Source of the DNA: Nitrospirota bacterium
GTDB lineage: Bacteria; Nitrospirota; Thermodesulfovibrionia; Thermodesulfovibrionales; UBA1546
Assembly: GCA_009773185.1 (NCBI GenBank)
Contig: WPIF01000017.1
Coordinates: 1-60,745 of the forward strand
Direction: 5' to 3'
Length of the DNA: 60,745 bases
In this document: positions 11,045 through 28,982 of the stretch, piece after piece
Numbering within the stretch: position 1 is the first letter of the stretch
How the letters are laid out: each line of letters begins with the position of its first letter
Made by a program: the position numbers and the translations under genes
Notes under the pieces: generated by a model
What the model saw: the letters and a program-made list of their open reading frames with translations, nothing else
What the model was told of the DNA's origin: nothing
Database searches by the model: none

Positions 11045-11339
11045 ATACGCTGTTCGGCTGTTAGAAATTGCAGAAGACGACCTTAACGAAATTGTGACCT
11101 ATATCGCCGCAGAAAATTTTACTGCCGCAGAAGCTCTTGCCGCAAAGATTGAAAAGAACCTGTCACATCTTTCTGTTCATCCCTTTATCGGGCGTGTCCC
11201 TGAGGAAGAGGAACTTACCAGATTAGGGTACCGCTACCTGATTGTCCAGGATTATCTTATCTTTTATACGATTGAAGGACAGACAATTCTTATTCACAGA
11301 ATTATCCATGGAGCAAGAGACTATTTGAGATTGCTTTAA
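11031..11339 (+). CDS. ParE/RelE-family toxin
   Basis: 102 aa. 'LIFYTIEGQTILIHRIIHGARDY' is a typical ParE/RelE C-terminus. It overlaps the antitoxin gene by 14 nt. Confidence 0.7.
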   Translation: MKQHRYAVRLLEIAEDDLNEIVTYIAAENFTAAEALAAKIEKNLSHLSVHPFIGRVPEEEELTRLGYRYLIVQDYLIFYTIEGQTILIHRIIHGARDYLRLL

Positions 11340-16377: not shown

Positions 16378-16722
16378 ATGCATGAGGCTTCAATTGCTCA
16401 AAGCGTGCTTGACATTGCCGGTGAGAACTGCAAAAAAGCAGGCTATAGCAGAATAGATTCGATACGGCTGAGAATAGGGAGGGCATCGGGTGTTATGACC
16501 GATGCCCTCCTTTTTGCCTTTGATGCACTTAAGGCAGATACTATTGCAGCAGGTGCAACCGTTATAATAGATGAGATTCCGGTAGGCGGTTTATGCAACA
16601 GCTGCGGCAAGGATTTTCTTACAGACGAGGCATATATCTTATGCTGTCCGGAATGCGGCGGGTTATCGTTTAAGGTGAATACAGGGCGTGAACTTGAAAT
16701 TCTGGATATGGAGGTGTCTTGA
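16378..16722 (+). CDS. hypA: hydrogenase nickel-insertion protein HypA
   Basis: 114 aa. N-terminal MHE, and a Zn site C-x2-C...C-x2-C ('CNSCGKDF...CCPECGG'). Confidence 0.85.
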   Translation: MHEASIAQSVLDIAGENCKKAGYSRIDSIRLRIGRASGVMTDALLFAFDALKADTIAAGATVIIDEIPVGGLCNSCGKDFLTDEAYILCCPECGGLSFKVNTGRELEILDMEVS

Positions 16723-16736
16723 TGAACAATTATGAT

Positions 16737-16858
16737 GCAGGATATAGCATCCTCGCTCATTCTCGGTCTTCGACCTCCGAGGTTTTGCCCGCTTTTATTA
16801 TTAGAAATTTTACTGTATGAATTGCAGGCAAAAAAACCGCTCAAATGCCATATCCTGC
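16737..16858. repeat. MITE-like repeat element copy (GCAGGATAT...ATATCCTGC termini)
   Basis: Shares 'CGCTCATTCTCGG..TCCGAGGTTTTGCC...GGCAAAAAAACCGCTCAAA' with copies at 27021, 31996, 33340 and 48511. Has terminal inverted repeats. Confidence 0.5.
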
Positions 16859-16896
16859 ATTTCATTTATAACTATAGTGATAGGGAGGGTTAATTT

Positions 16897-17541
16897 ATGA
16901 AAGTCAAGGTTGTAACCCGTATACTTGAAGCCAATGAAAGGATTGCAGCGGATAATCGCAGGATATTTGATGATTCAGGGGTATATGTTATAAATCTCAT
17001 GAGCGCACCCGGCGCAGGGAAGACATCTCTGCTTGAAAGAACCATAAAAGAGCTGAATAAAAAGTTAAAAGTGGCAGTTATTGAAGGAGATATTGCAGGC
17101 ACTCAGGATGCAGAAAGAATTGGAAACCTCGGGGTCCCGGTTATTCAAATAAATACAGGGGGCGCTTGCCATCTTGATGCAAATATGATTAATGAAGTCC
17201 TGGGAGAGCTTCCCCTGAAGGAGATTGAGCTTCTTTTTATTGAGAACGTAGGGAACCTTGTCTGCCCTGCTGAGTTTAATGTTGGCGAGGATATGAAGGT
17301 TATGCTTTTGAGCATAACAGAGGGAGATGACAAACCACTGAAATATCCGTTGATGTTTCAGGAATCATCAGCCTTAATCCTGAACAAGATTGACCTTTTG
17401 CAGCATACGAATGTAAGTATAGACAAGATAAAAAAGGATGCAATGTCTTTAAGCCCTTCAATAAAAATATTTGAGGTTTCATGCAGGACAGGCGAGGGGA
17501 TATCGGAGTGGACTGATTGGCTGGTAAAGAAGGTGAAATGA
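16897..17541 (+). CDS. hypB: hydrogenase maturation GTPase HypB
   Basis: 214 aa. P-loop 'GAPGAGKTSLL'. CobW/HypB family. Confidence 0.85.
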   Translation: MKVKVVTRILEANERIAADNRRIFDDSGVYVINLMSAPGAGKTSLLERTIKELNKKLKVAVIEGDIAGTQDAERIGNLGVPVIQINTGGACHLDANMINEVLGELPLKEIELLFIENVGNLVCPAEFNVGEDMKVMLLSITEGDDKPLKYPLMFQESSALILNKIDLLQHTNVSIDKIKKDAMSLSPSIKIFEVSCRTGEGISEWTDWLVKKVK

Positions 17542-19922
17542 ACCGTGTTCTCATCAACATCAAGGGCCTTGTGCAGGGCGTTGGTTTCAGGCCGTTTGTT
17601 TATAACCTTGCGAAATCCCTTAACCTGAAAGGCAGTGTAGCCAATACTGCTGATGGAGTAACTATTGATGTGGAGGGCGATGATGTAACTTTTTTTATAG
17701 AGATGCTTTCAAAAGAAGCGCCGCCATTATCAAAAATAATTAATGTTGATATCACGCCAATGCCTTTTTGCGGATACGAAGGCTTTGAAATACTTAAAAG
17801 CAAAGACAATGGAAGTTCTACGCTTATTTCTCCGGATATCTCTGTATGTGATGACTGCCTCAAAGAGATGTTTGATAAAACCGACAGGCGCTATCTCTAT
17901 CCGTTTATAAACTGCACAAACTGCGGGCCGAGGTACACGATTACAAATGCAGTCCCGTATGACAGGCAAAACACCACGATGTCTGTTTTCAGGATGTGCC
18001 CTGAATGCGAGGCTGAATACAATAATCCCGGGAACAGGAGATTTCATGCTCAGCCTAATGCGTGTCCGGTCTGCGGGCCGGAAGTTAAATTAGTTGTCAG
18101 CCATCAGCTGTCAGCTGTCAGCCAGGACCAAAATCCAATAGAAACTGCGATACGGCTATTAAAAGATGGGAAAATTATAGCAGTAAAAGGGCTTGGCGGT
18201 TTTCATATTGCATGCGATGCGAAAAATAAAGATGCGGTAGAAAGACTGAGGCTTGCAAAAAGAAAAAGCAACAAGCCTTTTGCGCTTATGGCGCCTGATA
18301 TCGGGACAATAGAAAGATACTGTGAGGTATCAGAGGAGGAAAAGAAGATTTTAAATTCCAATAAAAGGCCTGTTGTTCTTTTGAGGAAGAGGGCGGATGC
18401 TGATTCTTTGCCTGAGGCAGTAAGTCCTGATAACCAGTATCTTGGTTTTATGCTTCCCTACACTCCGCTGCATTATCTGTTGTTTTATTATTCCTTATCA
18501 GGGCTGACTTACCCCCCCATCCCCCCCTTGGTAAGGGGGGGCGAGAGGGGGGTGGCTAATTTCGATGCCCTTATCATGACGAGCGGAAATCTTTCTGAGG
18601 AACCGATTGTTATTGATAATGATGAGACAATCTCAAAATTATCCGATATAGCAGATGCATTTTTAATCCATAACAGGGATATTTTCATGCGCACTGATGA
18701 TTCGGTTGTCAGAAGTCACTTTTTAAGGCATAAGGCAAAACCGCTGTTTATCCGCCGTTCGCGCGGATATGCGCCTGACCCTATATTTTTAAATGACGAT
18801 GGCTCTGAGGTGCTTGGGTGCGGGGCTGACATAAAAAACACATTTACGCTTACAAAGGGCAGTTATGCAATCCCGAGCCAGCATATAGGAGACATGGAAA
18901 ATTATGAGACAGTAAAGTTTTTTGAAGAGAGCCTCAGGAATCTGAAAGCTGTTTACAGGGTCGAGCCTGTTGCCGTAGCTTATGACCTGCATCCTAATTA
19001 TTTTTCAACGCAATGGGCATTAGCGCAGGGCGCAGAGGGCAAAGGGCAAAGAGTTGAAACTTATGGCATTCAGCATCATTATGCGCATATAGCGTCTGTG
19101 ATGGCAGAAAACGGCATTAAGAAAAAGGTCATGGGCGTTGCATTTGACGGTACGGGTTACGGCACTGATGGTAATCTCTGGGGCAGCGAGTTCTTAATTG
19201 CTGACCCGGAGGATTTTAAGAGAGCGGGGCATTTTAAATACATCCCATTGCCGGGTGGCGAGATGGCAGTCAGAGATCCCTGGAGGGTGGCAGTGAGTTA
19301 TATAAAAGATATTGCAGGGGATGAGGCTATGCATTATCTGGGAGCCATAGGGTTTATTGAAAAATATGGCAAAGATAACCTGAATAATATTCTGAAAATA
19401 ATTGATAACCGGGAATTTTCACCTCTGTCATCAAGTGCTGGGAGGCTTTTCGATGCAGTTTCGGCAATGCTTGGAATATGTGATAGGAATACATTTGAGG
19501 GTGAGGCTGCAATGGCGCTTGAATCTTATACAACGGATGAAATAGATGATGATTACCCTGTGGATGTTATATTCAAGGAGAAGATAATAGTTGATTTTTC
19601 TTTGACGATGCTGCGGCTGATAGAGGATATAGCATGCGGGACTGCCAGGGGTATTATCGCTGCAAAGTTTCATAATACTATCGTGACGGTTATCGAAAGA
19701 GTCATCCTGAAGCTAAACACAATTTATAAATTATATGATGCTGTTTTAAGCGGAGGAGTTTTTCAGAATATGTATCTTCTTAAAAATACAATGAATAGGC
19801 TCAGGTCCGCAGGGATTAATGTCTATATCAACGAGAAGGTGCCGTCGAATGATGCAGGCATATCACTTGGACAGGCGTATATAATAAGGGAGAGGCTAAA
19901 GTCAGAAAAGTGGAAGGCGTAA
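17538..19922 (+). CDS. hypF: carbamoyltransferase HypF
   Basis: Acylphosphatase-like N-terminus (VQGVGFRPF), two Zn-finger pairs (CDDC...CTNCGPRY; CPEC...CPVCGP), YrdC-like 'KGLGGFH' and a Kae1-like C-terminus. ATGA overlap with hypB. Confidence 0.9.
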   Translation: MNRVLINIKGLVQGVGFRPFVYNLAKSLNLKGSVANTADGVTIDVEGDDVTFFIEMLSKEAPPLSKIINVDITPMPFCGYEGFEILKSKDNGSSTLISPDISVCDDCLKEMFDKTDRRYLYPFINCTNCGPRYTITNAVPYDRQNTTMSVFRMCPECEAEYNNPGNRRFHAQPNACPVCGPEVKLVVSHQLSAVSQDQNPIETAIRLLKDGKIIAVKGLGGFHIACDAKNKDAVERLRLAKRKSNKPFALMAPDIGTIERYCEVSEEEKKILNSNKRPVVLLRKRADADSLPEAVSPDNQYLGFMLPYTPLHYLLFYYSLSGLTYPPIPPLVRGGERGVANFDALIMTSGNLSEEPIVIDNDETISKLSDIADAFLIHNRDIFMRTDDSVVRSHFLRHKAKPLFIRRSRGYAPDPIFLNDDGSEVLGCGADIKNTFTLTKGSYAIPSQHIGDMENYETVKFFEESLRNLKAVYRVEPVAVAYDLHPNYFSTQWALAQGAEGKGQRVETYGIQHHYAHIASVMAENGIKKKVMGVAFDGTGYGTDGNLWGSEFLIADPEDFKRAGHFKYIPLPGGEMAVRDPWRVAVSYIKDIAGDEAMHYLGAIGFIEKYGKDNLNNILKIIDNREFSPLSSSAGRLFDAVSAMLGICDRNTFEGEAAMALESYTTDEIDDDYPVDVIFKEKIIVDFSLTMLRLIEDIACGTARGIIAAKFHNTIVTVIERVILKLNTIYKLYDAVLSGGVFQNMYLLKNTMNRLRSAGINVYINEKVPSNDAGISLGQAYIIRERLKSEKWKA
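18512..18556. repeat. G/C-rich hairpin element inserted in frame in hypF
   Basis: CCCCCCCTTGGTAAGGGGGGG encodes ...PPIPPLVRGGERGV... This is about 20 extra residues relative to E. coli HypF between LPYTPLHxLL and LxMTSGNLS. The same hairpin occurs intergenically at 32061 and 33386. Confidence 0.45.
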
Positions 19923-20986
19923 TAATAATCGAAAATATAAAGAAATTGCTGGACTCCATAAAAAGACCTGTGAGGCTGATGGAGGTCTGCGGCACCCATA
20001 CAGTTGCGATATTCAGGCACGGCATCAGAAAGCTGCTTCCGGAAAAGATTCTTCTTATAAGCGGGCCGGGCTGCCCTGTGTGTGTTACTTCTGTTGAAGA
20101 TGTTGAGAAGGCAATGGCGATAGCAAGAAACGAGGATATTATTTTCACAACCTTTGGCGATATGATGCGTGTGCCCGGCATTGAGAAGAATCTTTCAGAA
20201 GTCAGGGCAGAGGGCGCTGATGTAAGAGTTGTATATTCTCCAATGGATGCACTCAGGATTGCATCAGATAATAAGGATAAAAAGGTTGTATTTTTTGCAA
20301 CAGGTTTTGAGACAACATCTCCGTCTGTGGCAGGGACTTTATTTGAGGCGGACAAACTGAAGATTGATAATTTCTACATATACTCTGCTCACAAACTTGT
20401 TCCTCCGGCGCTGGATGCCCTCCTGGGTTCAGGTGAGGTCAATGTTGACGGCTTTATACTTCCGGGGCATGTCAGTACTATCATAGGAAGCAGGCCGTAT
20501 GAGTTTATAGCTGAAAAATACAGGAAACCGTCTGTTATAACAGGCTTTGATGCAGAGGATATATTGCAGGGTATATACATGCTGCTCGAACAGATTGCAT
20601 CTAACAGGGCAGAGGTTGAGATACAATATAAAAAGGTTGTAAGGGAAGAAGGAAATCCAAAGGCTGTTGAGCTTATGAATGAATATTTTGAGCCGAGTGA
20701 TGCTTACTGGCGGGGGATTGGGACAATACCATTAAGCGGCCTGAAGCTTAGAGAGAAATTCAGGCACAGGGATATAAGTTCGGCAATAAAGATTAATATT
20801 TCATTTGCTTTCGGCCCGCAGGAACCGCAAGGCTGCTCCTGCGGAGAGATTTTAAGAGGATTGAAAACACCTGACCAATGCCCGCTTTTTGGATGCGCAT
20901 GCACGCCTGAGAGCCCTGTTGGCGCATGCATGGTCAGCACAGAGGGAAGCTGCGCAGCGTATTATAAGTATGGAGGGTTTATTTGA
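19910..20986 (+). CDS. hypD: hydrogenase maturation factor HypD
   Basis: 358 aa. 'CGTHT', 'GPGCPVC' and the C-terminal Cys cluster 'CSCGE...CPLFGCAC' are HypD signatures. Confidence 0.85.
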   Translation: MEGVIIIENIKKLLDSIKRPVRLMEVCGTHTVAIFRHGIRKLLPEKILLISGPGCPVCVTSVEDVEKAMAIARNEDIIFTTFGDMMRVPGIEKNLSEVRAEGADVRVVYSPMDALRIASDNKDKKVVFFATGFETTSPSVAGTLFEADKLKIDNFYIYSAHKLVPPALDALLGSGEVNVDGFILPGHVSTIIGSRPYEFIAEKYRKPSVITGFDAEDILQGIYMLLEQIASNRAEVEIQYKKVVREEGNPKAVELMNEYFEPSDAYWRGIGTIPLSGLKLREKFRHRDISSAIKINISFAFGPQEPQGCSCGEILRGLKTPDQCPLFGCACTPESPVGACMVSTEGSCAAYYKYGGFI

Positions 20987-21214
20987 TGTTATTCAAAAAT
21001 GTTTTTCGGTTGCTACGATATTTTACGGCAGTTCTAGTCTTGTTAAAAGCGTGGCAATAGATGTCAATTTTCATCGCAACTTCCATTGAGAGGTTCTAAA
21101 TGCTCTCGAAAATTTCTTTAAGATTCCTAGTTTCGAGGATTTTAGCCCTTGGATTTCCTTGATCATCGGGCCATCTAACAAGTTTGATTTCTCCATTCGA
21201 AATCTCAATTCCTG

Positions 21215-22183
21215 TTATATCGCGTCACTGTAAGAGCAGCATCCTGTGTTAAAGTAACAGGGTTTTTCCATTGAAATTCCGCTGCTTTCCCCTTTTGCTT
21301 TTATGAATTCGAGTTCGGCGCGTTTTTCCGCAACCTTCCTGACAAGGTCATCAACATCCGCACCGCCTTTAGTCCGTAGCTTTAAGAGATCATCTTGGAG
21401 AGTCTTCAGTTCAGATTCTATTTTCCCTACATAATTTCTCGAGGCAAATACAGGCAAATGCGTGTGACCTGCGATTAATATGAGCTTATCACCATTCTTA
21501 CATCTATCCAGCGCCCAACTGTACATTGCCATATCGTGCATACTTTTCAAACTGGCATCTTTCGCAGGCGTTGTCGACCTGATTTTCAGTAGTCGCTGTA
21601 TATTGCGCCAGCCGTAACGAACAAGAACCTTGCTTATTGGTCCAAGTTGGTCACTGTCAAATGTTCCCTGATGCCCATGCACAAGAAGTATCTTCACTCC
21701 GAGAGGATTTCCATTATGAAAAATGATCATGCCTCTATATATAGGGGTTGATTGTGTGGTTATCTCGGGCATAAGATACTTGTCGATTGCTCCTTTTTTC
21801 TCCCAATAATCATCGTGGTTGCCGTAAATACGGTAATAGCGGTTTTGCTTAAGAAACTCGGCTTCAAGAGAAAGGGTATCTTTGTATGCCTTTACGACCG
21901 GCCCCGGTCTGCATTCCCACAGATCTTCTGCGTCACCAAGAATTATCAGAGTATAACCTGTTTCCAGATAATAACCCAGAGAGGCATTATATGCCTTTTC
22001 ACAGCCCAAAAAGTCGTCAGCACCGTCACGGGCACCTCTGTGCTGATCCGAAAAGATGATTATATTGTCTTTTGCAAAATCGAAACTTTCCCTATTGTCT
22101 TTGATGCTTTCGTATGTATCATTCAAACCCTTATCAATAGATTCTTGGTAAGACTTGTCTGTCTCAACTGCTCCGTCAGCCAT
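21215..22183 (-). CDS. calcineurin-like metallophosphoesterase
   Basis: 322 aa. Motifs 'IIFSDQH', 'LGDAEDLW', 'GNHD', 'VHGHQG', 'GHTH'. Cys-rich C-terminus (PCYFNTGCCSYS). Confidence 0.7.
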   Translation of the reverse strand: MADGAVETDKSYQESIDKGLNDTYESIKDNRESFDFAKDNIIIFSDQHRGARDGADDFLGCEKAYNASLGYYLETGYTLIILGDAEDLWECRPGPVVKAYKDTLSLEAEFLKQNRYYRIYGNHDDYWEKKGAIDKYLMPEITTQSTPIYRGMIIFHNGNPLGVKILLVHGHQGTFDSDQLGPISKVLVRYGWRNIQRLLKIRSTTPAKDASLKSMHDMAMYSWALDRCKNGDKLILIAGHTHLPVFASRNYVGKIESELKTLQDDLLKLRTKGGADVDDLVRKVAEKRAELEFIKAKGESSGISMEKPCYFNTGCCSYSDAI

Positions 22184-22500
22184 AGATGCCCTCCTTAGGA
22201 TTAATTATTGGAAACTTTCATTCATGTATTATTGTTGTGTTTTGTATAATCTCCTTTTGCCCTAATTGGCGTATAATCGCTGTGGCGGAAAAAAGCCCAA
22301 AGATTTGAATGTTAATCTTTTGCGGTATATAAATGTACCCATTGTCCCTTTTCTGTTCTTTTCACAATATTGAGCAATACAACTCCTTGACATTTGAGAA
22401 TTACTAAGTTAATCTGAATTTGCTCGGAGATACACGGTGACGTTGTGTCAGCGAAAGCTGGGGTAACGACCCACCCTTGGAAAAGGGGTGTCTCCGGGCA

Positions 22501-23619
22501 TTATTTTTTTTCAGATGTAAGTGATTTGTTCATTTCTATCAACTTACGCATTATCTCTTTGTCAAAATGTGCCTTTTGCCAGGTTTTATCCCTTGTCTTC
22601 AACAGACTTCTCAGGGTTGCCTCATCAATCTCTTTTAAATCATTGAAGAAAGCGTCATTAATATTGGCCTGTTCAAATTTGGTACCGATAAGAGTTGCTC
22701 CCTCAAGATGAGCAGACTGCATTGAAGCTTGATTGAACTCTGCATAACTCAGGTCTGCCTCCTTCAAGACTGCCGCGACAAGATTGCTTTTGTGAAACTT
22801 TGCATATTTAAAATTTGCCTTTTTGAACTTCGCTTCATTTAGATTGGCCTCTGAAAGCCATGCTTTTTCTAAAATTGCTCCAATTCCTCGGGCCCTGTAG
22901 AGACTTGTCTTTGAGCCACTCAGATTTGCATACTTTAACATGGTAAACCCTAAATCAGAATTGCTCAAATCGAGTCCGGACAGGTTGATGCGTTTCAGAT
23001 GGGGTGCACGAGAAAGATTTAACTCAAAGTTTTTATCGCTTTGTTTTAATAATGGGAGCTGAACTTGAAGCGCTTTTTCAAACCCCTCTATTAATAAGTC
23101 ATAAATGGCTTCGCTATTGCGTATCTTGAGATTTGCCAACAATATCATGAAAACTTGATAATGGAATATTTGATGCTCCGGTCTCAGAAATGTCAGAATT
23201 GAAACGGCTGCGCTTGCCCGATTTGACTCGCTTTCTGAGCCAAGATTTGTAATGATCGAATTGAATCTTTCATCAACTCTCCTTAGATTATCATTTTCCC
23301 TCTGCTCTCGATTAAGACGGCTCTCATTTATTAATTTCAAGATGGTAATAATCATACCGATAATGGCTAAAAGAGCGGTTATCATCGTCGAATAGTCGGG
23401 AAGTCGTCCCCAGAAGCTTTTGAGATTGTCGCTTTCGATTCGCAACTTTTCGTTTTCTAGCTTCAGTTTCTCGTTGGACAATTTCTGGTGGTCTGCGGAT
23501 ACTACCTGATCGTTAGCAAAAGATAGGCTTTGCCCAGACCACGCCCAGCCGGTGACTATAGATATAATGGAAAAAGTAATAATAAGGTGCATCGCTGTCA
23601 ATATCTTAACAATACCCAC
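22501..23619 (-). CDS. membrane-anchored pentapeptide-repeat protein
   Basis: 372 aa. N-terminal TM segments, a coiled coil, and C-terminal pentapeptide repeats ('ANLSGSKTS...ANFKYAKFHKSNLVAAVLKEADLSYAEFNQASMQSAHLEGATLIGTKFEQANIND'). Confidence 0.65.
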   Translation of the reverse strand: MGIVKILTAMHLIITFSIISIVTGWAWSGQSLSFANDQVVSADHQKLSNEKLKLENEKLRIESDNLKSFWGRLPDYSTMITALLAIIGMIITILKLINESRLNREQRENDNLRRVDERFNSIITNLGSESESNRASAAVSILTFLRPEHQIFHYQVFMILLANLKIRNSEAIYDLLIEGFEKALQVQLPLLKQSDKNFELNLSRAPHLKRINLSGLDLSNSDLGFTMLKYANLSGSKTSLYRARGIGAILEKAWLSEANLNEAKFKKANFKYAKFHKSNLVAAVLKEADLSYAEFNQASMQSAHLEGATLIGTKFEQANINDAFFNDLKEIDEATLRSLLKTRDKTWQKAHFDKEIMRKLIEMNKSLTSEKK

Positions 23620-23801
23620 GATCAGCTCCTTGTAATAAAGCGAGGGACAATGTGTAAATATTATATATTAGTGTGCCAGTTAAATTTTCATTCATTCTAT
23701 TTTTTTAAACACCAGCAATGAGTAGATAACGTTATGCGTTCGTTTGCACATTGTCGGAACTGATACAGCGTCTTAAATATATTCTTATTTGTTACACCTT
23801 G

Positions 23802-24680
23802 CTAAGCTCTATTGTATCTATGTTTGAGTTTTTCAAAACCTTGGATGCCTTCACGCATTATGATATCCCTATCTTCTGTTTGCCACTCGGTGTCGTTGAA
23901 GAATGAGTAAAGCTTGCTTGTGTTCCAAATCGCTGGCGATAGTTGTTCAAAGAATTTATCTTGTAGTTCAGGATTGTCAACATACTCGGCTTTAATTGTG
24001 TCTACTAACCGAGCAAGACTAAGAAGAGCCTTCTCACTCTTCTCATGGCCCCAAGTATCCATATTGTGAGGTGATGATGAATCTCTTGCTACAACTCGCT
24101 TCTGAATCTTACCGTCAAGGCTAGCGAGTATCTTGGGGCCGATCTCGATAACCCAATTAGCCACACGAGGATCAAACCTTTCACCGTGAGCTGCCTCATT
24201 CAGAGCAGTAATCATATCTTCAAGAGTTGATCGCTCTCGGGAAGTCAAAAGCTGACCCTTTGAAAGCTCATTCATCAAGGCACGAAGACCTTTCCGCGAA
24301 GGATTGATGTTGTTCTCTGCAGCAAGTTTTCTGAGGCTCTTTTCAATTTCTATCCGAAGACCCGTCAAGGCTAAATTTGGATTGAATTCGGCGACAGAAA
24401 GAAATGAATATTCATCTTGTTCGGATTGAGTTGTGCCTTCTTTGATTAAACCTGCCGCTCTAGCTTCCTGCCCGACTTTTTCCAGTTCTTGAAACTCGAA
24501 CTTTAGTCCGCCCGGTAGTTCTAATGACTTGAACAACGGTGATAGCCAAGGGACTAAGGCAATTATGATTAGTATTGCAACAACTCCATCTATGCTAAGA
24601 CTAGGCCATATCAGATGAGCTGTCGCAATCAGAAGTGCGCCTACGGTTATTGAATACTGGATAAACTTCCGTTTCTTCAA
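23802..24680 (-). CDS. hypothetical membrane protein
   Basis: 292 aa with two N-terminal TM helices. No recognisable domain. Confidence 0.4.
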   Translation of the reverse strand: MKKRKFIQYSITVGALLIATAHLIWPSLSIDGVVAILIIIALVPWLSPLFKSLELPGGLKFEFQELEKVGQEARAAGLIKEGTTQSEQDEYSFLSVAEFNPNLALTGLRIEIEKSLRKLAAENNINPSRKGLRALMNELSKGQLLTSRERSTLEDMITALNEAAHGERFDPRVANWVIEIGPKILASLDGKIQKRVVARDSSSPHNMDTWGHEKSEKALLSLARLVDTIKAEYVDNPELQDKFFEQLSPAIWNTSKLYSFFNDTEWQTEDRDIIMREGIQGFEKLKHRYNRA

Positions 24681-24922
24681 TTTGATATTACCCTTTCTCT
24701 AATGTTTAGCTTGCAAATGGCACATAACTCGTTAATATCCATATTTCGTATATCCCAACTCTGGCTGTCCTCCAGTATTTCTTGTGACAAAAATGCACTT
24801 TTGATTTTGTAAATGTTTTTGGTGATTATATGCCGAGACTTTTGTGAAGGTGTATTAATATCTGCATGCAATGGCAGATGAGGAATTTTGCTGTTTACAG
24901 AGATGTTTTTAACGGTATTCAC
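24677..24922 (-). CDS. small hypothetical ORF (uncertain)
   Basis: 81-aa ORF whose stop overlaps the start of the 292-aa gene (ATGA). Possibly co-translated, no homology signal. Confidence 0.2.
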   Translation of the reverse strand: MNTVKNISVNSKIPHLPLHADINTPSQKSRHIITKNIYKIKSAFLSQEILEDSQSWDIRNMDINELCAICKLNIRERVISN

Positions 24923-25017
24923 CCCGGTTCCATGAAAGGAATCGTATCAAAGCCTTTCTTTTAATGTCAAGCAGATTTTAGTTAAAGATATTTCCTTATG
25001 CTAAAATAGCATCAATT

Positions 25018-26040
25018 ATGGATAGAATCCTTCTTGAACACGGCAGCGGCGGCAAGAAAATGCATAAACTGATAAGGGAATTTTTTGCGCCTGAATTCGA
25101 GATGAAAAGCTTTGGAGATTCTGCTGTTATTGATATTATTAACGCTGAACGCCGAACGCTGAACGCTGAACGATTCAGGCTTGCTTTTACAACTGACTCT
25201 TATGTTGTCTCTCCGCTTTTTTTCCCGGGAGGGAATATAGGAGAGCTTGCAGTATACGGCACTGTGAATGACCTTGCAATGGTTGGCGCCCGACCTTTGT
25301 ATCTCAGTGCAGGGTTCATATTCGAAGAAGGATTTTTGATAAATGATATGAAGAAAATTCTTGTATCAATGGCAGAGGCTGCTAAAAAATCAGGGGTAAA
25401 GATTATTGCAGGCGATACAAAGGTTGTTAACAAAGGCAAGGCTGACGGCATGTTCATAAACACATCAGGAATAGGCGTTGTTGAAGGCGGACTTGATATA
25501 TCTCCTAAAAATATAAAAGTCGGGGATAAGATTATCATAAGCGGGACAATAGGCAATCATGGGGTTGCTGTTATGGCGGAAAGAAATGGTTTGAGTTTCA
25601 ACCCTCCTGTGCTGAGTGATACAGCTCCATTAAATCATATCATACAGGAAATGCTTGGATATGGAGAAGTGCATGCGATGAGAGACCCTACAAGAGGAGG
25701 GCTTGCCACTACGCTTAAGGAGATGGCCCTGGAGTCACGCCTCTGCTTTGAAATCAGTGAGGAGGCGATACCGGTTGCCAAAGGAGTTATAGGTGTGTCT
25801 GAGCTGCTGGGCCTGGACCCATTATATATTGCAAATGAAGGTATTTTTGTTGCTTTTGTAAAGAATGATGCTGCTGAAAAGATGCTTGATGCCCTGAAAA
25901 AAAATCCATTGGGCAGGGGTTCAAATATTATTGGAGAAGTGGTAGAATCACCTTCAGGAAAGGTCTTATTAAAGACAAGAATCGGCGGGACACGCCTTAT
26001 TGATATGCTTTCAGGGGAGCAATTGCCGAGGATATGCTGA
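25018..26040 (+). CDS. hypE: hydrogenase maturation protein HypE
   Basis: 340 aa. 'LLEHGSGG', 'TTDSYVVSPLFFPGGNIG' and a C-terminal '...PRIC' are HypE/AIR-synthase-related signatures. Confidence 0.85.
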   Translation: MDRILLEHGSGGKKMHKLIREFFAPEFEMKSFGDSAVIDIINAERRTLNAERFRLAFTTDSYVVSPLFFPGGNIGELAVYGTVNDLAMVGARPLYLSAGFIFEEGFLINDMKKILVSMAEAAKKSGVKIIAGDTKVVNKGKADGMFINTSGIGVVEGGLDISPKNIKVGDKIIISGTIGNHGVAVMAERNGLSFNPPVLSDTAPLNHIIQEMLGYGEVHAMRDPTRGGLATTLKEMALESRLCFEISEEAIPVAKGVIGVSELLGLDPLYIANEGIFVAFVKNDAAEKMLDALKKNPLGRGSNIIGEVVESPSGKVLLKTRIGGTRLIDMLSGEQLPRIC

Positions 26041-27192: not shown

Positions 27193-27573
27193 CTACACCG
27201 CTATTTCAAGCAGAATCTTATCGTACTTCACCATTGGCGTTGTCTTTTCCCTGCCATTGGTTTTAGCTTTTTCAAGCTCAAGCAGTCCCAATTCTGCAAG
27301 ATAATGTACATCGTCTGAAACATTCTTGAGGTTTCTGCTAATCAGTTTTGCAAGTTCATAGATGGATTGTGGATGTTTTCCCCTGATAACCTGAAGGATT
27401 TTAACCCTCTCCGGCGTTATTGCCTTTCTCATTGTTTCCAGGCTGTCAAAATATATTCCAGGTTTCTTTTTCTTGACCTTATCTCCGCTCTTAAGCTTTT
27501 TCATAACGCTTTTTGCATCGCCAAGCACTTCCTCAATGCTCTTAATCCCTATGGTTACATTTTTAACTTTCAT
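27193..27573 (-). CDS. HTH-domain protein, putative partner of the DUF6516-like protein
   Basis: 126 aa. 'ERVKILQVIRGKHPQSIYELAKLISRNLKNVSDDVHYLAELGLL' is a winged-HTH. It overlaps the upstream gene by 11 nt. Confidence 0.45.
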   Translation of the reverse strand: MKVKNVTIGIKSIEEVLGDAKSVMKKLKSGDKVKKKKPGIYFDSLETMRKAITPERVKILQVIRGKHPQSIYELAKLISRNLKNVSDDVHYLAELGLLELEKAKTNGREKTTPMVKYDKILLEIAV

Positions 27574-27847
27574 TGTTCATCACCTCTTTTAGGTCTTTGT
27601 AAAAATCTTCAAAAAGTTTATCTATTCCCTGAAACTTATAGGGCATTGCCTTATCGCCATAATGCCGATGGTCTCCTTTGCCTTCGGCATTGTCATATCC
27701 TAAAACACGCCTGCCATGTCTGATATACACCAGCGAGTATTTATACCCATGCGGTTTAGCTGGTGATTTAGGGACTGACCATACTTTAGTCTCAATAATG
27801 CCTCCGTGTTTGTCTTCCACCTTGTCATGTATAAGAAGTTCAGTCAT
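27563..27847 (-). CDS. DUF6516-like small protein (HGYKYSLVY / GYDNAEGKGDHRH motifs), possible TA-like toxin
   Basis: 94 aa. The conserved-looking block 'VWSVPKSPAKPHGYKYSLVYIRHGRRVLGYDNAEGKGDHRHYGDK' is recalled from memory as DUF6516 / TumE-like, not verified. Confidence 0.4.
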   Translation of the reverse strand: MTELLIHDKVEDKHGGIIETKVWSVPKSPAKPHGYKYSLVYIRHGRRVLGYDNAEGKGDHRHYGDKAMPYKFQGIDKLFEDFYKDLKEVMNNES

Positions 27848-28054: not shown

Positions 28055-28855
28055 TCACCCTGTTTGTGTAGCAGAAAATAATAGTTCTTCTAAAAACTTA
28101 CGATAAGGTTCATTAAACCTCTTAAATTGGAGGGTTCTTGTACCGCCAGACTCGGTTTCGGTTATGATAAAACGACACACCTCAAGTTCCCTCAGATGAG
28201 CAACTTTCCATTCTCTTGTTTCATCGACCCACTTATCAAGATCACTGCCTGTGTCTGAACGAAAAGAAAATTTTCCTTCAAGAACAAACCGTTTTAGTAA
28301 ATTCTTGGCTTTAGGACTTATTGACTTGAGTTTTTCGACAATCAATGCTTTTTGTTCAGTTTCAAAGCCAGTCAACAATAAGAGCTTGTCAAGGAGCAAT
28401 GGAATCTTATTGTCTAGACCTCCGAGAAGAGATTTTGCATCTGTATGCTCGATATAAATCTGGTCATCAATATCGAATGGTAGTTTTTCTTTTTGGCCTG
28501 GGTTTAATAAAAAAATTAAAGGTTTTTTTAGTCCCTGCATTAATCCAGTTTCTTGAAAAACATTGTAATTGAGAGGAGTTAGAGAAACAATTCCAAAATC
28601 AGATGCCAAAGCATATCTACAAATATTGCAAAATTTTGTACCTGTACCCCCTTCCTTGTCAGCATTAAACAAACGCCATGTTCTTTCACTGAAATATCTT
28701 TCTATTGTCGGTTGCAACCATTTATCTTGATCACGATATTGAAATATAAAAAAAGCTTTATACTTTTCAGGAGTCAATAAATAATCTTTGTCAGGTGAAG
28801 AAAGATTACACTTCATTGGATAATGATCTGGACAAATAAAATTGAATTTTCCCAT
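28055..28855 (-). CDS. hypothetical protein on the tRNA-Pro islet
   Basis: 266 aa. N-terminal 'FFIFQYRDQD...FNADKEGGTGTKFCNICRYALASDFGIVSLTP' has a Rossmann-like alternation that could be a TIR/SLOG-like fold. Unassigned. Confidence 0.35.
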   Translation of the reverse strand: MGKFNFICPDHYPMKCNLSSPDKDYLLTPEKYKAFFIFQYRDQDKWLQPTIERYFSERTWRLFNADKEGGTGTKFCNICRYALASDFGIVSLTPLNYNVFQETGLMQGLKKPLIFLLNPGQKEKLPFDIDDQIYIEHTDAKSLLGGLDNKIPLLLDKLLLLTGFETEQKALIVEKLKSISPKAKNLLKRFVLEGKFSFRSDTGSDLDKWVDETREWKVAHLRELEVCRFIITETESGGTRTLQFKRFNEPYRKFLEELLFSATQTG

Positions 28856-28905
28856 ATCAATCTCTCGTTTTACAGAAAACTATTTGATTTGAAATAAATT
28901 TTTCT

Positions 28906-28982
28906 TGGTCGGGGCGAAAGGATTTGAACCTTCGACCCCACGGTCCCGAACCGTGTGCGCTACCAAACTGCGCTACGCCCCG
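28906..28982 (-). tRNA. tRNA-Pro (anticodon CGG)
   Basis: The reverse complement reads CGGGGCGTAGCGCAGTTTGGTAGCGCACACGGTTCGGGACCGTGGGGTCGAAGGTTCAAATCCTTTCGCCCCGACCA. It has a 7-bp acceptor stem, a D-arm, the anticodon loop TTCGGGA, a T-arm GGTTCAAATCC and an encoded CCA. Confidence 0.85.

What the first reader, a model, noticed from the sequence alone, without database searches (positions are those of the whole stretch)
20987..25017. AT-rich 4-kb insert splitting hypD from hypE: metallophosphoesterase + membrane pentapeptide-repeat protein + membrane hypotheticals
Between convergent hypD (ends 20986) and hypE (starts 25018) lie three to four minus-strand genes with visibly lower GC than the flanks. 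Local stretches are ~28-36% GC versus ~48% in hypD.

The genes are: a calcineurin-like metallophosphoesterase with a Cys-rich tail (21215-22183); a membrane-anchored coiled-coil + pentapeptide-repeat protein (22501-23619); a 292-aa two-TM protein (23802-24680); and a possible translationally coupled 81-aa ORF.

The composition, orientation opposite to the hyp operon and position inside a normally contiguous operon point to a horizontally acquired cassette. A phosphoesterase paired with a membrane pentapeptide-repeat protein is not a combination I can assign to a described system. An accessory or defence-type function is plausible.
Basis: partly seen in the sequence, partly recalled or inferred. 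Interest (0 to 1): 0.6.

Follow-up and report, generated by a model that had tools for sequence, protein, structure and literature searches.

The report
Patchwork gene insertion splitting hypD–hypE
A 4-kb stretch really was inserted between two hydrogenase-maturation genes in this one Nitrospirota lineage, but it is a stitched-together patch of three unrelated accessory genes (one of them broken), with no evidence that they form a foreign cassette or a joint defence system.

Summary
The genes and coordinates are real, and the insertion is real. In the sister species (HypD 95% identical) and eight further relatives, hypD is followed directly by hypE, 2–217 bp apart.

- **Composition:** GC is 40.4% against a window mean of 43.3%. 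The three genes are 39.7–43.2% GC with ordinary codon usage; only the intergenic spacers are AT-rich.
- **No conserved trio:** none of about 85 other phosphoesterase loci, two other pentapeptide-protein contexts and three other p292 contexts shows any pairing. PADLOC finds nothing.
- **Mosaic structure:** the phosphoesterase segment was cut out of a conserved phosphoesterase→amidohydrolase pair. The first 26 nt of the amidohydrolase gene survive at the left junction.
- **Broken gene:** a 1-nt deletion removes three core strands and a helix of the phosphoesterase. The "Cys-rich tail" is that truncation.
- **The other two genes:** the pentapeptide protein is an intact member of a widespread membrane family. 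The 292-aa protein is a membrane-anchored HEPN-fold protein of a type described in 2013.
- **The 81-aa ORF** has no relatives and is probably not a gene.

No integrase, transposase, terminal repeats, attC-like hairpins or tRNA mark the site. Verdict: an ordinary lineage-specific insertion, low interest.

The parts
19910..20986 (+). hypD, intact, left flank of the insertion
   Evidence: Pfam HypD 5.6e-152, TIGR00075 1e-145. 95% aa identity to L007; dN/dS 0.10.
20987..21040 (.). Remnant of the ancestral hypD-hypE spacer
   Evidence: Aligns with the hypD-hypE spacers of relatives L010 and L011, e.g. TTTCGGTTGCTACGATATTTT with 20 of 21 bases matching.
21049..21074 (-). 5' remnant (first ~9 codons, MKIDIYCHA) of an Amidohydro_2 gene; marks the left breakpoint
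   Evidence: Homologous to the start of the amidohydrolase gene that follows the phosphoesterase gene in L097, L088 and L102. Homology stops at about 21049-21052 against all three loci.
21096..22183 (-). Metallophosphoesterase gene carrying a 1-nt deletion between 21223 and 21224. The annotated ORF is 21215-22183 (322 aa); restoring one G gives 362 aa.
   Evidence: Alignments to homologues and to L097/L088 DNA. An intact 90%-identical copy, P0361, exists. The AF2 model shows that the lost residues 322-361 form three strands and a helix at pLDDT >90. All metallophosphoesterase motif residues are invariant in the family.
22209..22355 (.). Unassigned spacer between the phosphoesterase segment and the pentapeptide-protein segment
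   Evidence: No nucleotide or translated match in any fetched locus. DNA fold z-scores are -0.6 and -0.3.
22356..23732 (-). Pentapeptide-protein segment, defined by 86% nucleotide identity to L093/L094. The gene is 22501-23619 (372 aa, GTG start, AAGGAG Shine-Dalgarno site). Architecture: TM, coiled coil, TM, helical module, pentapeptide beta-helix.
   Evidence: dN/dS 0.30 against L093.
23802..24680 (-). p292: two N-terminal TM helices (with WP and PW signatures), a HEPN-fold (DUF4145-like) domain at residues ~98-190, and a clade-specific C-terminal helical extension
24677..24922 (-). 81-aa ORF, probably not a gene
   Evidence: GC by codon position 0.35/0.32/0.37. No Shine-Dalgarno site, GTG start. 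No relatives in 1.84e9 representatives. No match in any locus.
24681..25017 (.). Right arm of the insert: non-coding, with promoter-like sites facing p292. The right breakpoint lies within ~24989-25012.
   Evidence: Promoter-like TTGACA-18-TACGAT on the minus strand at 24970-24941. Homology to relatives resumes only about 5-29 nt before the hypE ATG.
25018..26040 (+). hypE, intact, right flank. It has lost the translational coupling to hypD seen in relatives.
   Evidence: TIGR02124 1.9e-131. tblastn gives 89.7% aa identity to L007; the codon alignment gives 92% with dN/dS 0.12. L007 has GGAG...TAATG overlapping hypD; the window has no Shine-Dalgarno site upstream of hypE.

Best explanation
The hypD-hypE interval holds a lineage-specific, roughly 3.95-kb mosaic insertion (about 21041 to about 25000). 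It was assembled by illegitimate, non-site-specific recombination from at least three separately derived single-gene segments, and the composition and nearest relatives of these segments point to related Nitrospirota genomes.

The segments are:
1. A metallophosphoesterase gene torn out of a conserved phosphoesterase→amidohydrolase pair. It is now inactivated, or at least truncated, by a 1-nt deletion.
2. An intact membrane-anchored pentapeptide-repeat protein with a coiled coil.
3. An intact membrane-anchored HEPN-fold protein.

The three genes do not form a functional system; they are neighbours by accident of insertion. The main consequence for the host is that hypE is physically and translationally uncoupled from hypD. 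hypE nevertheless remains intact.

Shown: the insertion, the breakpoints, the frameshift, the lack of co-occurrence, the folds.
Inferred: the recombination mechanism, the related-lineage origin, the loss of phosphoesterase function, and independent functions for the pentapeptide protein and p292.
For: - **Empty site.** In L007 (HypD 95% identical) and in L008-L015, hypD and hypE are 2-217 bp apart and followed by the same patatin gene.
- **Left breakpoint.** The window keeps about 54 bp of the ancestral spacer. It then joins abruptly to the first 26 nt of an amidohydrolase gene that follows the phosphoesterase gene in L097, L088 and L102.
- **Separate segments.** Phosphoesterase-segment homology ends at the same two points (about 21049-21052 and 22208) against three independent loci. 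Pentapeptide-segment homology (22356-23732) is with a different locus, L093.
- **Different contexts for the nearest homologues.** Phosphoesterase with amidohydrolase; pentapeptide protein after Lon or after SIMPL; p292 beside GAPDH and a Y1 transposase.
- **No co-occurrence.** 0 of 80 further phosphoesterase loci carry a pentapeptide-protein or p292 homologue; 63 of them had at least 1.2 kb of flank on one side. phmmer with the repeat region finds none in 85 loci.
- **Frameshift.** A 1-nt deletion relative to L097 and L088. It is present in three independent run-level assemblies that are 100% identical to the window over 6-10 kb. It removes residues that form core strands in the AF2 model.
- **Native-like composition and codon usage**. 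The named nearest phosphoesterase relatives are Nitrospirota. Synonymous divergence of the pentapeptide gene from L093 (dS 0.27) is about the same as hypD from L007 (0.23).
- **No mobility or system signatures.** No PADLOC hits. No integrase or transposase among the larger ORFs scanned (most of those within about 10 kb). No terminal repeats or target-site duplication. No attC-like hairpins, no Rfam hit, no tRNA at the site.
Against: - All three genes are on the same strand and have good Shine-Dalgarno sites, so co-transcription is possible.
- HEPN domains and metallophosphoesterases do occur in defence systems. Individual phosphoesterase relatives sit beside a gasdermin or near an AIPR gene and a repeat-rich membrane protein.
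- Only two other pentapeptide-protein contexts and three other p292 contexts were examined, so a link between those two genes is tested less thoroughly than links involving the phosphoesterase.
- The out-of-frame tail of the phosphoesterase still shows dN/dS 0.22, so the frameshift is very recent. A functional truncated product, or recoding, cannot be excluded.
- Whole genomes of the relatives were not searched. Relocation within the genome cannot be told apart from transfer between relatives.
Confidence: 0.75

Rival explanations
1. The trio is a new accessory or defence system: a phosphoesterase effector, a membrane pentapeptide-repeat sensor or scaffold, and a membrane HEPN protein, acquired as one cassette.
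For: - Same strand, compact, each gene with a Shine-Dalgarno site.
- p292 has a HEPN fold.
- Phosphoesterase relatives lie next to a gasdermin and near AIPR.
- The segment is a lineage-specific insertion.
Against: - No co-occurrence in about 85 phosphoesterase loci, two other pentapeptide-protein contexts or three other p292 contexts.
- No PADLOC hits.
- The phosphoesterase is frameshifted, and its conserved partner gene is truncated to 26 nt.
- The segments have distinct homology boundaries and distinct donor contexts.
- The HEPN domain lacks the canonical arginine of the Rx4-6H motif.
Confidence: 0.06
2. The pentapeptide protein and p292 form a two-gene membrane module. Both are two-TM proteins with cytoplasmic domains, for example a sensor plus an RNA-targeting HEPN effector. 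The phosphoesterase fragment is an unrelated passenger.
For: - The two genes are adjacent on the same strand, 182 bp apart, and both are intact and under purifying selection.
- Their topologies are similar.
- Membrane-associated HEPN proteins have been proposed to respond to surface signals (PMC3710099).
Against: - The nearest pentapeptide-protein homologues (L093, L099) and p292 homologues (L095/096, L098, L100) have none of the other gene nearby.
- Pentapeptide-segment homology with L093 ends about 70 bp before the p292 gene.
Confidence: 0.08
3. The arrangement is ancestral and was deleted in the relatives, or the contig is a mis-assembly (chimera).
For: - hypD-hypE spacer length is variable among the relatives (2-217 bp), which shows local instability.
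- All the data come from metagenome-assembled genomes.
Against: - Nine relatives spanning 72-95% HypD identity all lack the segment, which would need many independent precise deletions.
- The truncated amidohydrolase remnant and the spacer remnant are insertion scars.
- Three independent run-level assemblies are 100% identical to the window; L001 and L002 span both junctions, L003 the left one.
Confidence: 0.04

Closest known systems
Calcineurin-like metallophosphoesterase superfamily (Pfam PF00149); JGI labels relatives 'LpxH' or 'predicted phosphodiesterase'
   Same: All the metal-binding motifs are invariant in the family: D46-x-H48, G83-D84, G121-N122-H123-D124, H169/H171 and G239-H240-T241-H242. 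The predicted fold matches purple acid phosphatase, Mre11/SbcD and Vps29.
   Different: - Matches to solved structures are only remote: TM ≤0.47, and no PDB hit by sequence profile.
- No NCBIfam model, LpxH included, is matched.
- The family has its own coiled-coil insert and a conserved C-terminal CYFNTGCCS-SDGDVTGIEI...LVRWP module.
- The window's copy is frameshifted.
Pentapeptide-repeat proteins (Pfam PF00805; Qnr, MfpA, HetL, PipB2)
   Same: The C-terminal half is a clear pentapeptide-repeat region, expected to form a right-handed quadrilateral beta-helix (Pentapeptide 1.3e-22).
   Different: - Scores are far below every curated equivalog cut-off, e.g. Qnr 26 against 240 bits and HetL 64 against 260 bits.
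- The protein has a conserved N-terminal TM, coiled coil, second TM and helical module, plus a W.KAHFD tail. These define a separate, uncharacterised membrane family of about 360-400 aa.
Membrane-associated DUF4145-like HEPN proteins with a WP-signature TM module (Anantharaman et al. 2013, PMC3710099)
   Same: - N-terminal TM region with a conserved WP (HLIWP, P26 invariant), followed by a cytoplasmic HEPN-fold domain.
   Different: - Two hydrophobic helices are predicted here; the paper describes a single TM helix.
- The arginine of the Rx4-6H motif is replaced. The invariant motif is L160-N161-x-A-x-H165-G, with R109, E111 and E113 invariant elsewhere.
- There is an extra clade-specific C-terminal helical extension, which is swapped for DUF1311 in Flavobacteria.
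- Identity with the paper's example sequence could not be checked.
Integron gene cassettes and small genomic islets
   Same: Several same-strand single-gene units with short flanks, inserted at one site.
   Different: - No attC-like hairpins (z about 0).
- No integrase or transposase among the larger ORFs scanned (most of those within about 10 kb).
- No tRNA at the site and no terminal repeats.
- One unit ends inside a neighbouring gene.

Membership tests
Calcineurin-like metallophosphoesterase (PF00149) | Profile match above the Pfam gathering score | tested here: met
   29.8 bits against a cut-off of 21.5, E 9.9e-7.
Calcineurin-like metallophosphoesterase (PF00149) | Metal-binding motifs DxH, GD, GNH(D/E), H, GHxH | tested here: met
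   D46, H48, G83, D84, G121, N122, H123, D124, H169, G239, H240 and H242 are invariant in 50 sequences; H171 is nearly invariant. All are present in the window's copy.
Calcineurin-like metallophosphoesterase (PF00149) | Complete beta-sandwich core (an intact gene) | tested here: not met
   A 1-nt deletion ends the ORF at residue 322. Residues 322-361 form three strands and a helix in the model.
LpxH (UDP-2,3-diacylglucosamine hydrolase), the name JGI gives to relatives | Match to a curated LpxH equivalog model | tested here: not met
   No NCBIfam family matched at E ≤0.01.
Pentapeptide-repeat protein (PF00805) | Tandem pentapeptide repeats above the gathering score | tested here: met
   79.4 bits against 20.2, four stretches; Pentapeptide_4 48.2 against 38.
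Qnr/MfpA-type topoisomerase-protecting pentapeptide-repeat proteins | Score at or above the curated equivalog cut-off; a soluble protein of about 180-220 aa | tested here: not met
   Qnr 26.4 against 240 bits; MfpA 21.7 against 360 bits. The protein is 372 aa with two hydrophobic segments.
HEPN superfamily (DUF4145-like branch) | Four-helix up-down HEPN fold | tested here: met
HEPN superfamily (DUF4145-like branch) | Profile match to DUF4145/HEPN above the gathering score | tested here: inconclusive
   The window protein scores DUF4145 at E 0.056 (14 bits against 23.1). 13 of 26 family members hit DUF4145, best E 2.4e-4.
HEPN superfamily (DUF4145-like branch) | Catalytic Rx4-6H motif | tested here: not met
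   H165 and N161 are invariant, but the positions 4-6 residues upstream are L, T or I, never R.
WP-TM membrane-associated HEPN group (PMC3710099) | N-terminal TM module with a conserved WP signature | tested here: met
   HLIWP at residues 22-26. P26 is invariant; position 25 is W in most members and F or Y in some. P44 and W45 are invariant. Two hydrophobic helices are predicted here, against one described.
Known anti-phage defence systems (PADLOC-DB v2) | Any component matching a defence-system model | tested here: not met
   No hits at E ≤0.1 for the phosphoesterase, the pentapeptide protein, p292 or the 81-aa ORF.
Conserved multi-gene system (operon-level family) | Recurrent co-localisation of the components in other genomes | tested here: not met
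   0 of about 85 phosphoesterase loci, 0 of 2 other pentapeptide-protein contexts and 0 of 3 other p292 contexts.
Integron cassette array | attC hairpins between cassettes and an IntI integrase nearby | tested here: not met
   Spacer DNA folds have z-scores from -1.3 to +1.4. No integrase among the larger neighbouring ORFs scanned. No dedicated attC covariance model was available.

The most novel reading that the evidence does not exclude
The two intact membrane proteins could form a previously undescribed envelope-signal-to-RNA module. These are the two-TM, coiled-coil pentapeptide-repeat protein and the WP-TM HEPN-like protein with a non-canonical N...H site. The module might originally have included the phosphoesterase, was captured into the hyp locus, and would be a rare new defence or stress system.
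Probability: 0.05. Interest if true: 0.55.

Novelty: new member of a known kind. Interest (0 to 1): 0.2.

Why it matters
It matters little beyond this lineage.

- **As a caution.** Gene order alone (phosphoesterase, pentapeptide protein, membrane protein, inside an operon) suggested a 'system'. Comparative data show a recombination patchwork with a dead gene.
- **Annotation.** The 322-aa 'hypothetical protein' FD156_1895 is a frameshifted 362-aa metallophosphoesterase. The 292-aa hypothetical is a membrane-anchored HEPN-fold protein.
- **Loose ends.** It flags two large uncharacterised families that remain open: the membrane pentapeptide-repeat family and the WP-TM HEPN-like family with an altered motif.
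- **Physiology.** The insertion breaks the hypD-hypE translational coupling. That may affect hydrogenase maturation in this organism.

Tried and rejected
- **PDB sequence searches.** The phosphoesterase family profile gave 0 hits at E ≤0.01. p292 gave only noise.
- **PADLOC.** No hits for any of the insert proteins.
- **PHROGs.** Only generic repeat hits to families of unknown function.
- **Terminal repeats and target-site duplication.** None was convincing.
- **Integron idea.** The spacers do not fold better than shuffled sequence, there is no Rfam hit, and no integrase was found among the neighbouring ORFs scanned.
- **tRNA-island idea.** The only tRNA is tRNA-Pro, 4 kb away, beyond hypE, the patatin gene and a toxin-antitoxin pair.
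- **Motif AGGGACAATGKGTA, inverted on both sides of the pentapeptide gene.** It is not significant: 12 of 100 shuffles did as well. It is also absent from L093.
- **Six-frame search of the intergenic pieces for gene remnants.** Only the phosphoesterase tail, the amidohydrolase start and a weak match in IG2 (from ~22340) continuing the pentapeptide-segment homology to L093/L094 were found.
- **A crude regular-expression detector for pentapeptide repeats.** It failed on its positive control and was discarded.
- **Viral contigs.** The p292 family occurs on 1 contig out of 2.9 million, and the pentapeptide protein on none, so there is no phage link.
- **Clade membership of the donor-like contigs.** I tried to test it through shared flanking genes. 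The window has none in common, so only GC and the names of relatives could be used.

Full report
**1. Observation**

The window comes from a Nitrospirota MAG. The proteins carry FD156_ locus tags.

hypB (16897-17541), hypF (17517-19922) and hypD (19910-20986) lie on the + strand, and hypE (25018-26040) follows 4,031 bp later. All have very strong family matches.

Between hypD and hypE, on the minus strand, lie three ORFs:
- a metallophosphoesterase (MPE) ORF at 21215-22183;
- a pentapeptide-repeat protein (PRP) at 22501-23619;
- a 292-aa protein with no Pfam family (p292) at 23802-24680.

An 81-aa ORF (24677-24922) overlaps the start of p292.

The composition claim is overstated:

| Region | GC |
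|---|---|
| Insert as a whole | 40.4% |
| hypD | 45.2% |
| Window mean | 43.3% |
| MPE, PRP, p292 genes | 43.2%, 39.7%, 43.1% |
| Intergenic spacers | 33-37% (100-bp minima 28-31%) |

- The insert sits at the 6.5th percentile of all 4-kb windows.
- GC3 of the three genes is 0.39-0.42, the same as the hyp genes.
- Codon-usage distance to the rest of the window ranks 23rd, 22nd and 31st of 40 ORFs. hypD itself ranks 27th.

**2. It is a real, lineage-specific insertion**

A scan of GTDB species representatives with HypD recovered nine close Nitrospirota or Thermodesulfovibrionales relatives.
- In the nearest (L007, HypD 95% identical), hypD and hypE overlap as TAATG and are followed by the same patatin and HVO_A0114 genes.
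- In L008-L015 (72-83% identical) the gap is 2-217 bp.
- None of them contains an MPE, PRP or p292 homologue at the site.

Three independent single-run assemblies (SRR8863431, SRR8863440, SRR8863436) are 100% identical to the window over 6-10 kb; the first two span both junctions, the third the left one. This excludes a chimeric contig.

**3. Anatomy of the junctions**

- **Spacer remnant.** The first ~54 bp after the hypD stop (20987-21040) are still alignable with the hypD-hypE spacers of L010 and L011.
- **Amidohydrolase remnant.** From 21049 to 21074 (minus strand) the sequence ATGAAAATTGACATCTATTGCCACGC matches the first codons (MKIDIYCHA) of an Amidohydro_2 gene. In L097, L088 and L102 that gene immediately follows the MPE gene. 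Homology to all three loci stops at about 21049-21052.
- **Left end.** It is therefore a gene truncated to 26 nt and butted against the old spacer. This is a scar of illegitimate recombination, not a cassette boundary.
- **Segment boundaries.** On the other side, MPE-segment homology ends 25 bp upstream of the MPE start (22208). The PRP gene lies in a separate segment (22356-23732) that is 86% identical to a different contig, L093. p292 matches its relatives only within the gene, at 67% nucleotide identity.
- **Right end.** Homology to the relatives resumes only a few to about 29 nt before the hypE ATG.
- **No mobility signatures.** No terminal direct or inverted repeats and no target duplication. 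No attC-like hairpins, no Rfam element, no tRNA at the site. No integrase or transposase was found among the larger ORFs scanned (most of those within about 10 kb).

**4. The metallophosphoesterase is broken**

Homologues are about 350-370 aa; the window ORF is 322 aa.
- Protein and DNA alignments show a single missing G between 21223 and 21224 (GAT GGC GAT in relatives, GAC GCG AT here).
- After that point the conserved tail DITGIEISNGEIKLVRWPDDQGNP...IFESI* can be read in another frame, down to 21096. So the 'Cys-rich tail' is the truncated CYFNTGCCS motif.
- An AF2 model of the intact 83%-identical homologue has pLDDT 86. In it, residues 322-361 form three strands and a terminal helix at pLDDT >90, so the truncation removes part of the core.
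- The out-of-frame tail still shows dN/dS 0.22 against L097, so the lesion is recent.
- An intact copy, 90% identical, exists elsewhere (P0361, contig L102), again paired with the amidohydrolase.
- The family (1,723 hits) keeps all the metallophosphoesterase metal-binding motifs. It is only remotely similar to solved structures: purple acid phosphatase, Mre11/SbcD and Vps29, TM ≤0.47, with no PDB hit by sequence profile. It matches no NCBIfam model, LpxH included.

**5. The pentapeptide-repeat protein**

It is an intact, typical member of a widespread family of about 360-400 aa. In order, the family has:
- a signal-anchor TM helix;
- an EKLRQEI...LEN coiled coil;
- a second TM helix;
- a conserved helical module (NLGS...AAVSILTFL...QVF.ILLANLK);
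- the pentapeptide beta-helix;
- a W.KAHFD tail.

Scores against Qnr, MfpA, HetL and PipB models are far below their cut-offs. Its function is unknown.

**6. p292 is a membrane-anchored HEPN-fold protein**

- **Conserved core.** It is the N-terminal ~190 residues: two hydrophobic helices with HLIWP and PW signatures, a KSLELPGGLKxEF linker, and a helical domain with invariant R109, E111, E113, N161 and H165.
- **Variable C-terminus.** The last ~100 residues occur only in close relatives. They are absent from ~200-aa forms and replaced by DUF1311/LprI in Flavobacteria.
- **Profile evidence.** Half of the family members give sub-threshold DUF4145, HEPN or HepT hits.
- **Prior description.** Anantharaman et al. 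2013 (PMC3710099) describe exactly this kind: a DUF4145-like HEPN joined to a TM module with a conserved WP. They propose signal-dependent RNA processing at the inner face of the membrane.
- **Difference.** The arginine of Rx4-6H is absent here (invariant L-N-x-A-x-H-G). The domain may be non-catalytic, or it may use a different site.

**7. Is the trio a system? No evidence**

The nearest homologues each sit in a different neighbourhood, with none of the other two genes nearby:

| Gene | Nearest homologues | Neighbourhood |
|---|---|---|
| MPE | 90%, 83% and 72% identical | followed by amidohydrolase |
| MPE | 66% identical | housekeeping genes |
| MPE | 55% identical | next to a bacterial gasdermin |
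| PRP | 83% identical | after Lon protease |
| PRP | 75% identical | after a SIMPL-domain gene |
| p292 | 68-69% identical | beside GAPDH and a Y1 transposase, or among hypothetical ORFs |

- Eighty further MPE loci from JGI metagenomes contain no PRP or p292 homologue. Of these, 63 had at least 1.2 kb of flank on one side.
- phmmer with the pentapeptide region finds nothing in 85 MPE loci.
- PADLOC has no hit.
- The p292 family is on one of 2.9 million viral contigs and the PRP on none.

**8. The 81-aa ORF**

It has flat GC across codon positions, no Shine-Dalgarno site and a GTG start. It has no relatives among 1.84 billion representative proteins, apart from itself and two weak repetitive hits. 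It is most likely not a gene.

**9. Interpretation**

The best-supported reading is an ordinary lineage-specific insertion, built by illegitimate recombination from several short segments.
- **Likely source.** The segments probably derive from related Nitrospirota. The donor-like loci have 40-45% GC and the named MPE relatives are Nitrospirota. Synonymous divergence of the PRP gene from L093 (dS 0.27) is similar to that of hypD from the sister species (0.23).
- **Why this site.** The hypD-hypE spacer is itself variable in this clade, 2-217 bp, with a palindromic element in L012. That may make it permissive for insertions.
- **State of the genes.** One of the three genes is already decaying. 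The other two are intact and under purifying selection, but nothing ties them to each other.
- **Effect on hypE.** It has lost the translational coupling to hypD seen in relatives and has no obvious Shine-Dalgarno site. It remains intact, with dN/dS 0.12.

**10. Verdict**

- Novelty: new members of known kinds.
- Interest: low.
- The residual novel reading is a functional module of the pentapeptide protein with the HEPN-like protein. I put it at about 5%.

Noticed in passing
window 27193-27847 (-): A TumE toxin (PF20126, 3.3e-14) and an HVO_A0114-type antitoxin (PF25212, 4.2e-25) form a pair just downstream of the patatin gene. The pair is conserved in relatives: L007 has the antitoxin, L009 has both.
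   Followed up: partly
window 28055-28982: A 266-aa ORF (28055-28855, minus strand) has the most deviant codon usage of 40 ORFs and the lowest GC in the region (33-36%). It has no Pfam family and only a weak hit to phrog_3634. It abuts tRNA-Pro(cgg) at 28906-28982. It is a better candidate for truly foreign DNA than the hypD/hypE insert.
   Followed up: partly
L090 7166-9695 (also L091, L092, L104, L105): A member of the same phosphoesterase family (P0008, 55% identical) lies 28 bp downstream of a bacterial gasdermin gene (PF26164). A Peptidase_C92-like ORF follows it. This may be a gasdermin-associated phosphoesterase.
   Followed up: no
L102 493-6793: The intact 90%-identical phosphoesterase is followed by Amidohydro_2, a 600-aa repeat-rich protein with C-terminal TM segments (faint Pentapeptide_3 hit), and an AIPR abortive-infection-type protein (PF10592). 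The 600-aa protein does not recur near other phosphoesterase genes.
   Followed up: partly
L007-L015, hypD-hypE junctions; L012 ~11110-11190: The hypD-hypE spacer ranges from 2 to 217 bp among close relatives. L012's spacer carries a long palindrome (CCCCCTTAATCCCCC...GGGGGATTAAGGGGG). The junction appears to be a locally unstable site.
   Followed up: no
proteins P0161, P0167, P0182, P0202 (alignment A3): In Flavobacterium and relatives, the two-TM plus HEPN-like core of the p292 family is fused at its C-terminus to a DUF1311/LprI domain, in place of the helical extension seen here.
   Followed up: no
window 16897-26040: The hyp cluster runs hypB-hypF-hypD-(insert)-hypE, with hypF overlapping hypD. 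No hypC or hypA was recognised in the cluster. The conserved 140-aa ORF on the minus strand (16443-16865) upstream of hypB has no Pfam family.
   Followed up: no
window 22336-22349 and 23643-23656: The 14-mer AGGGACAATG(G/T)GTA occurs in inverted orientation on both sides of the pentapeptide gene, with a partial third copy near 23745. It is not statistically significant and is absent from the homologous locus L093.
   Followed up: yes
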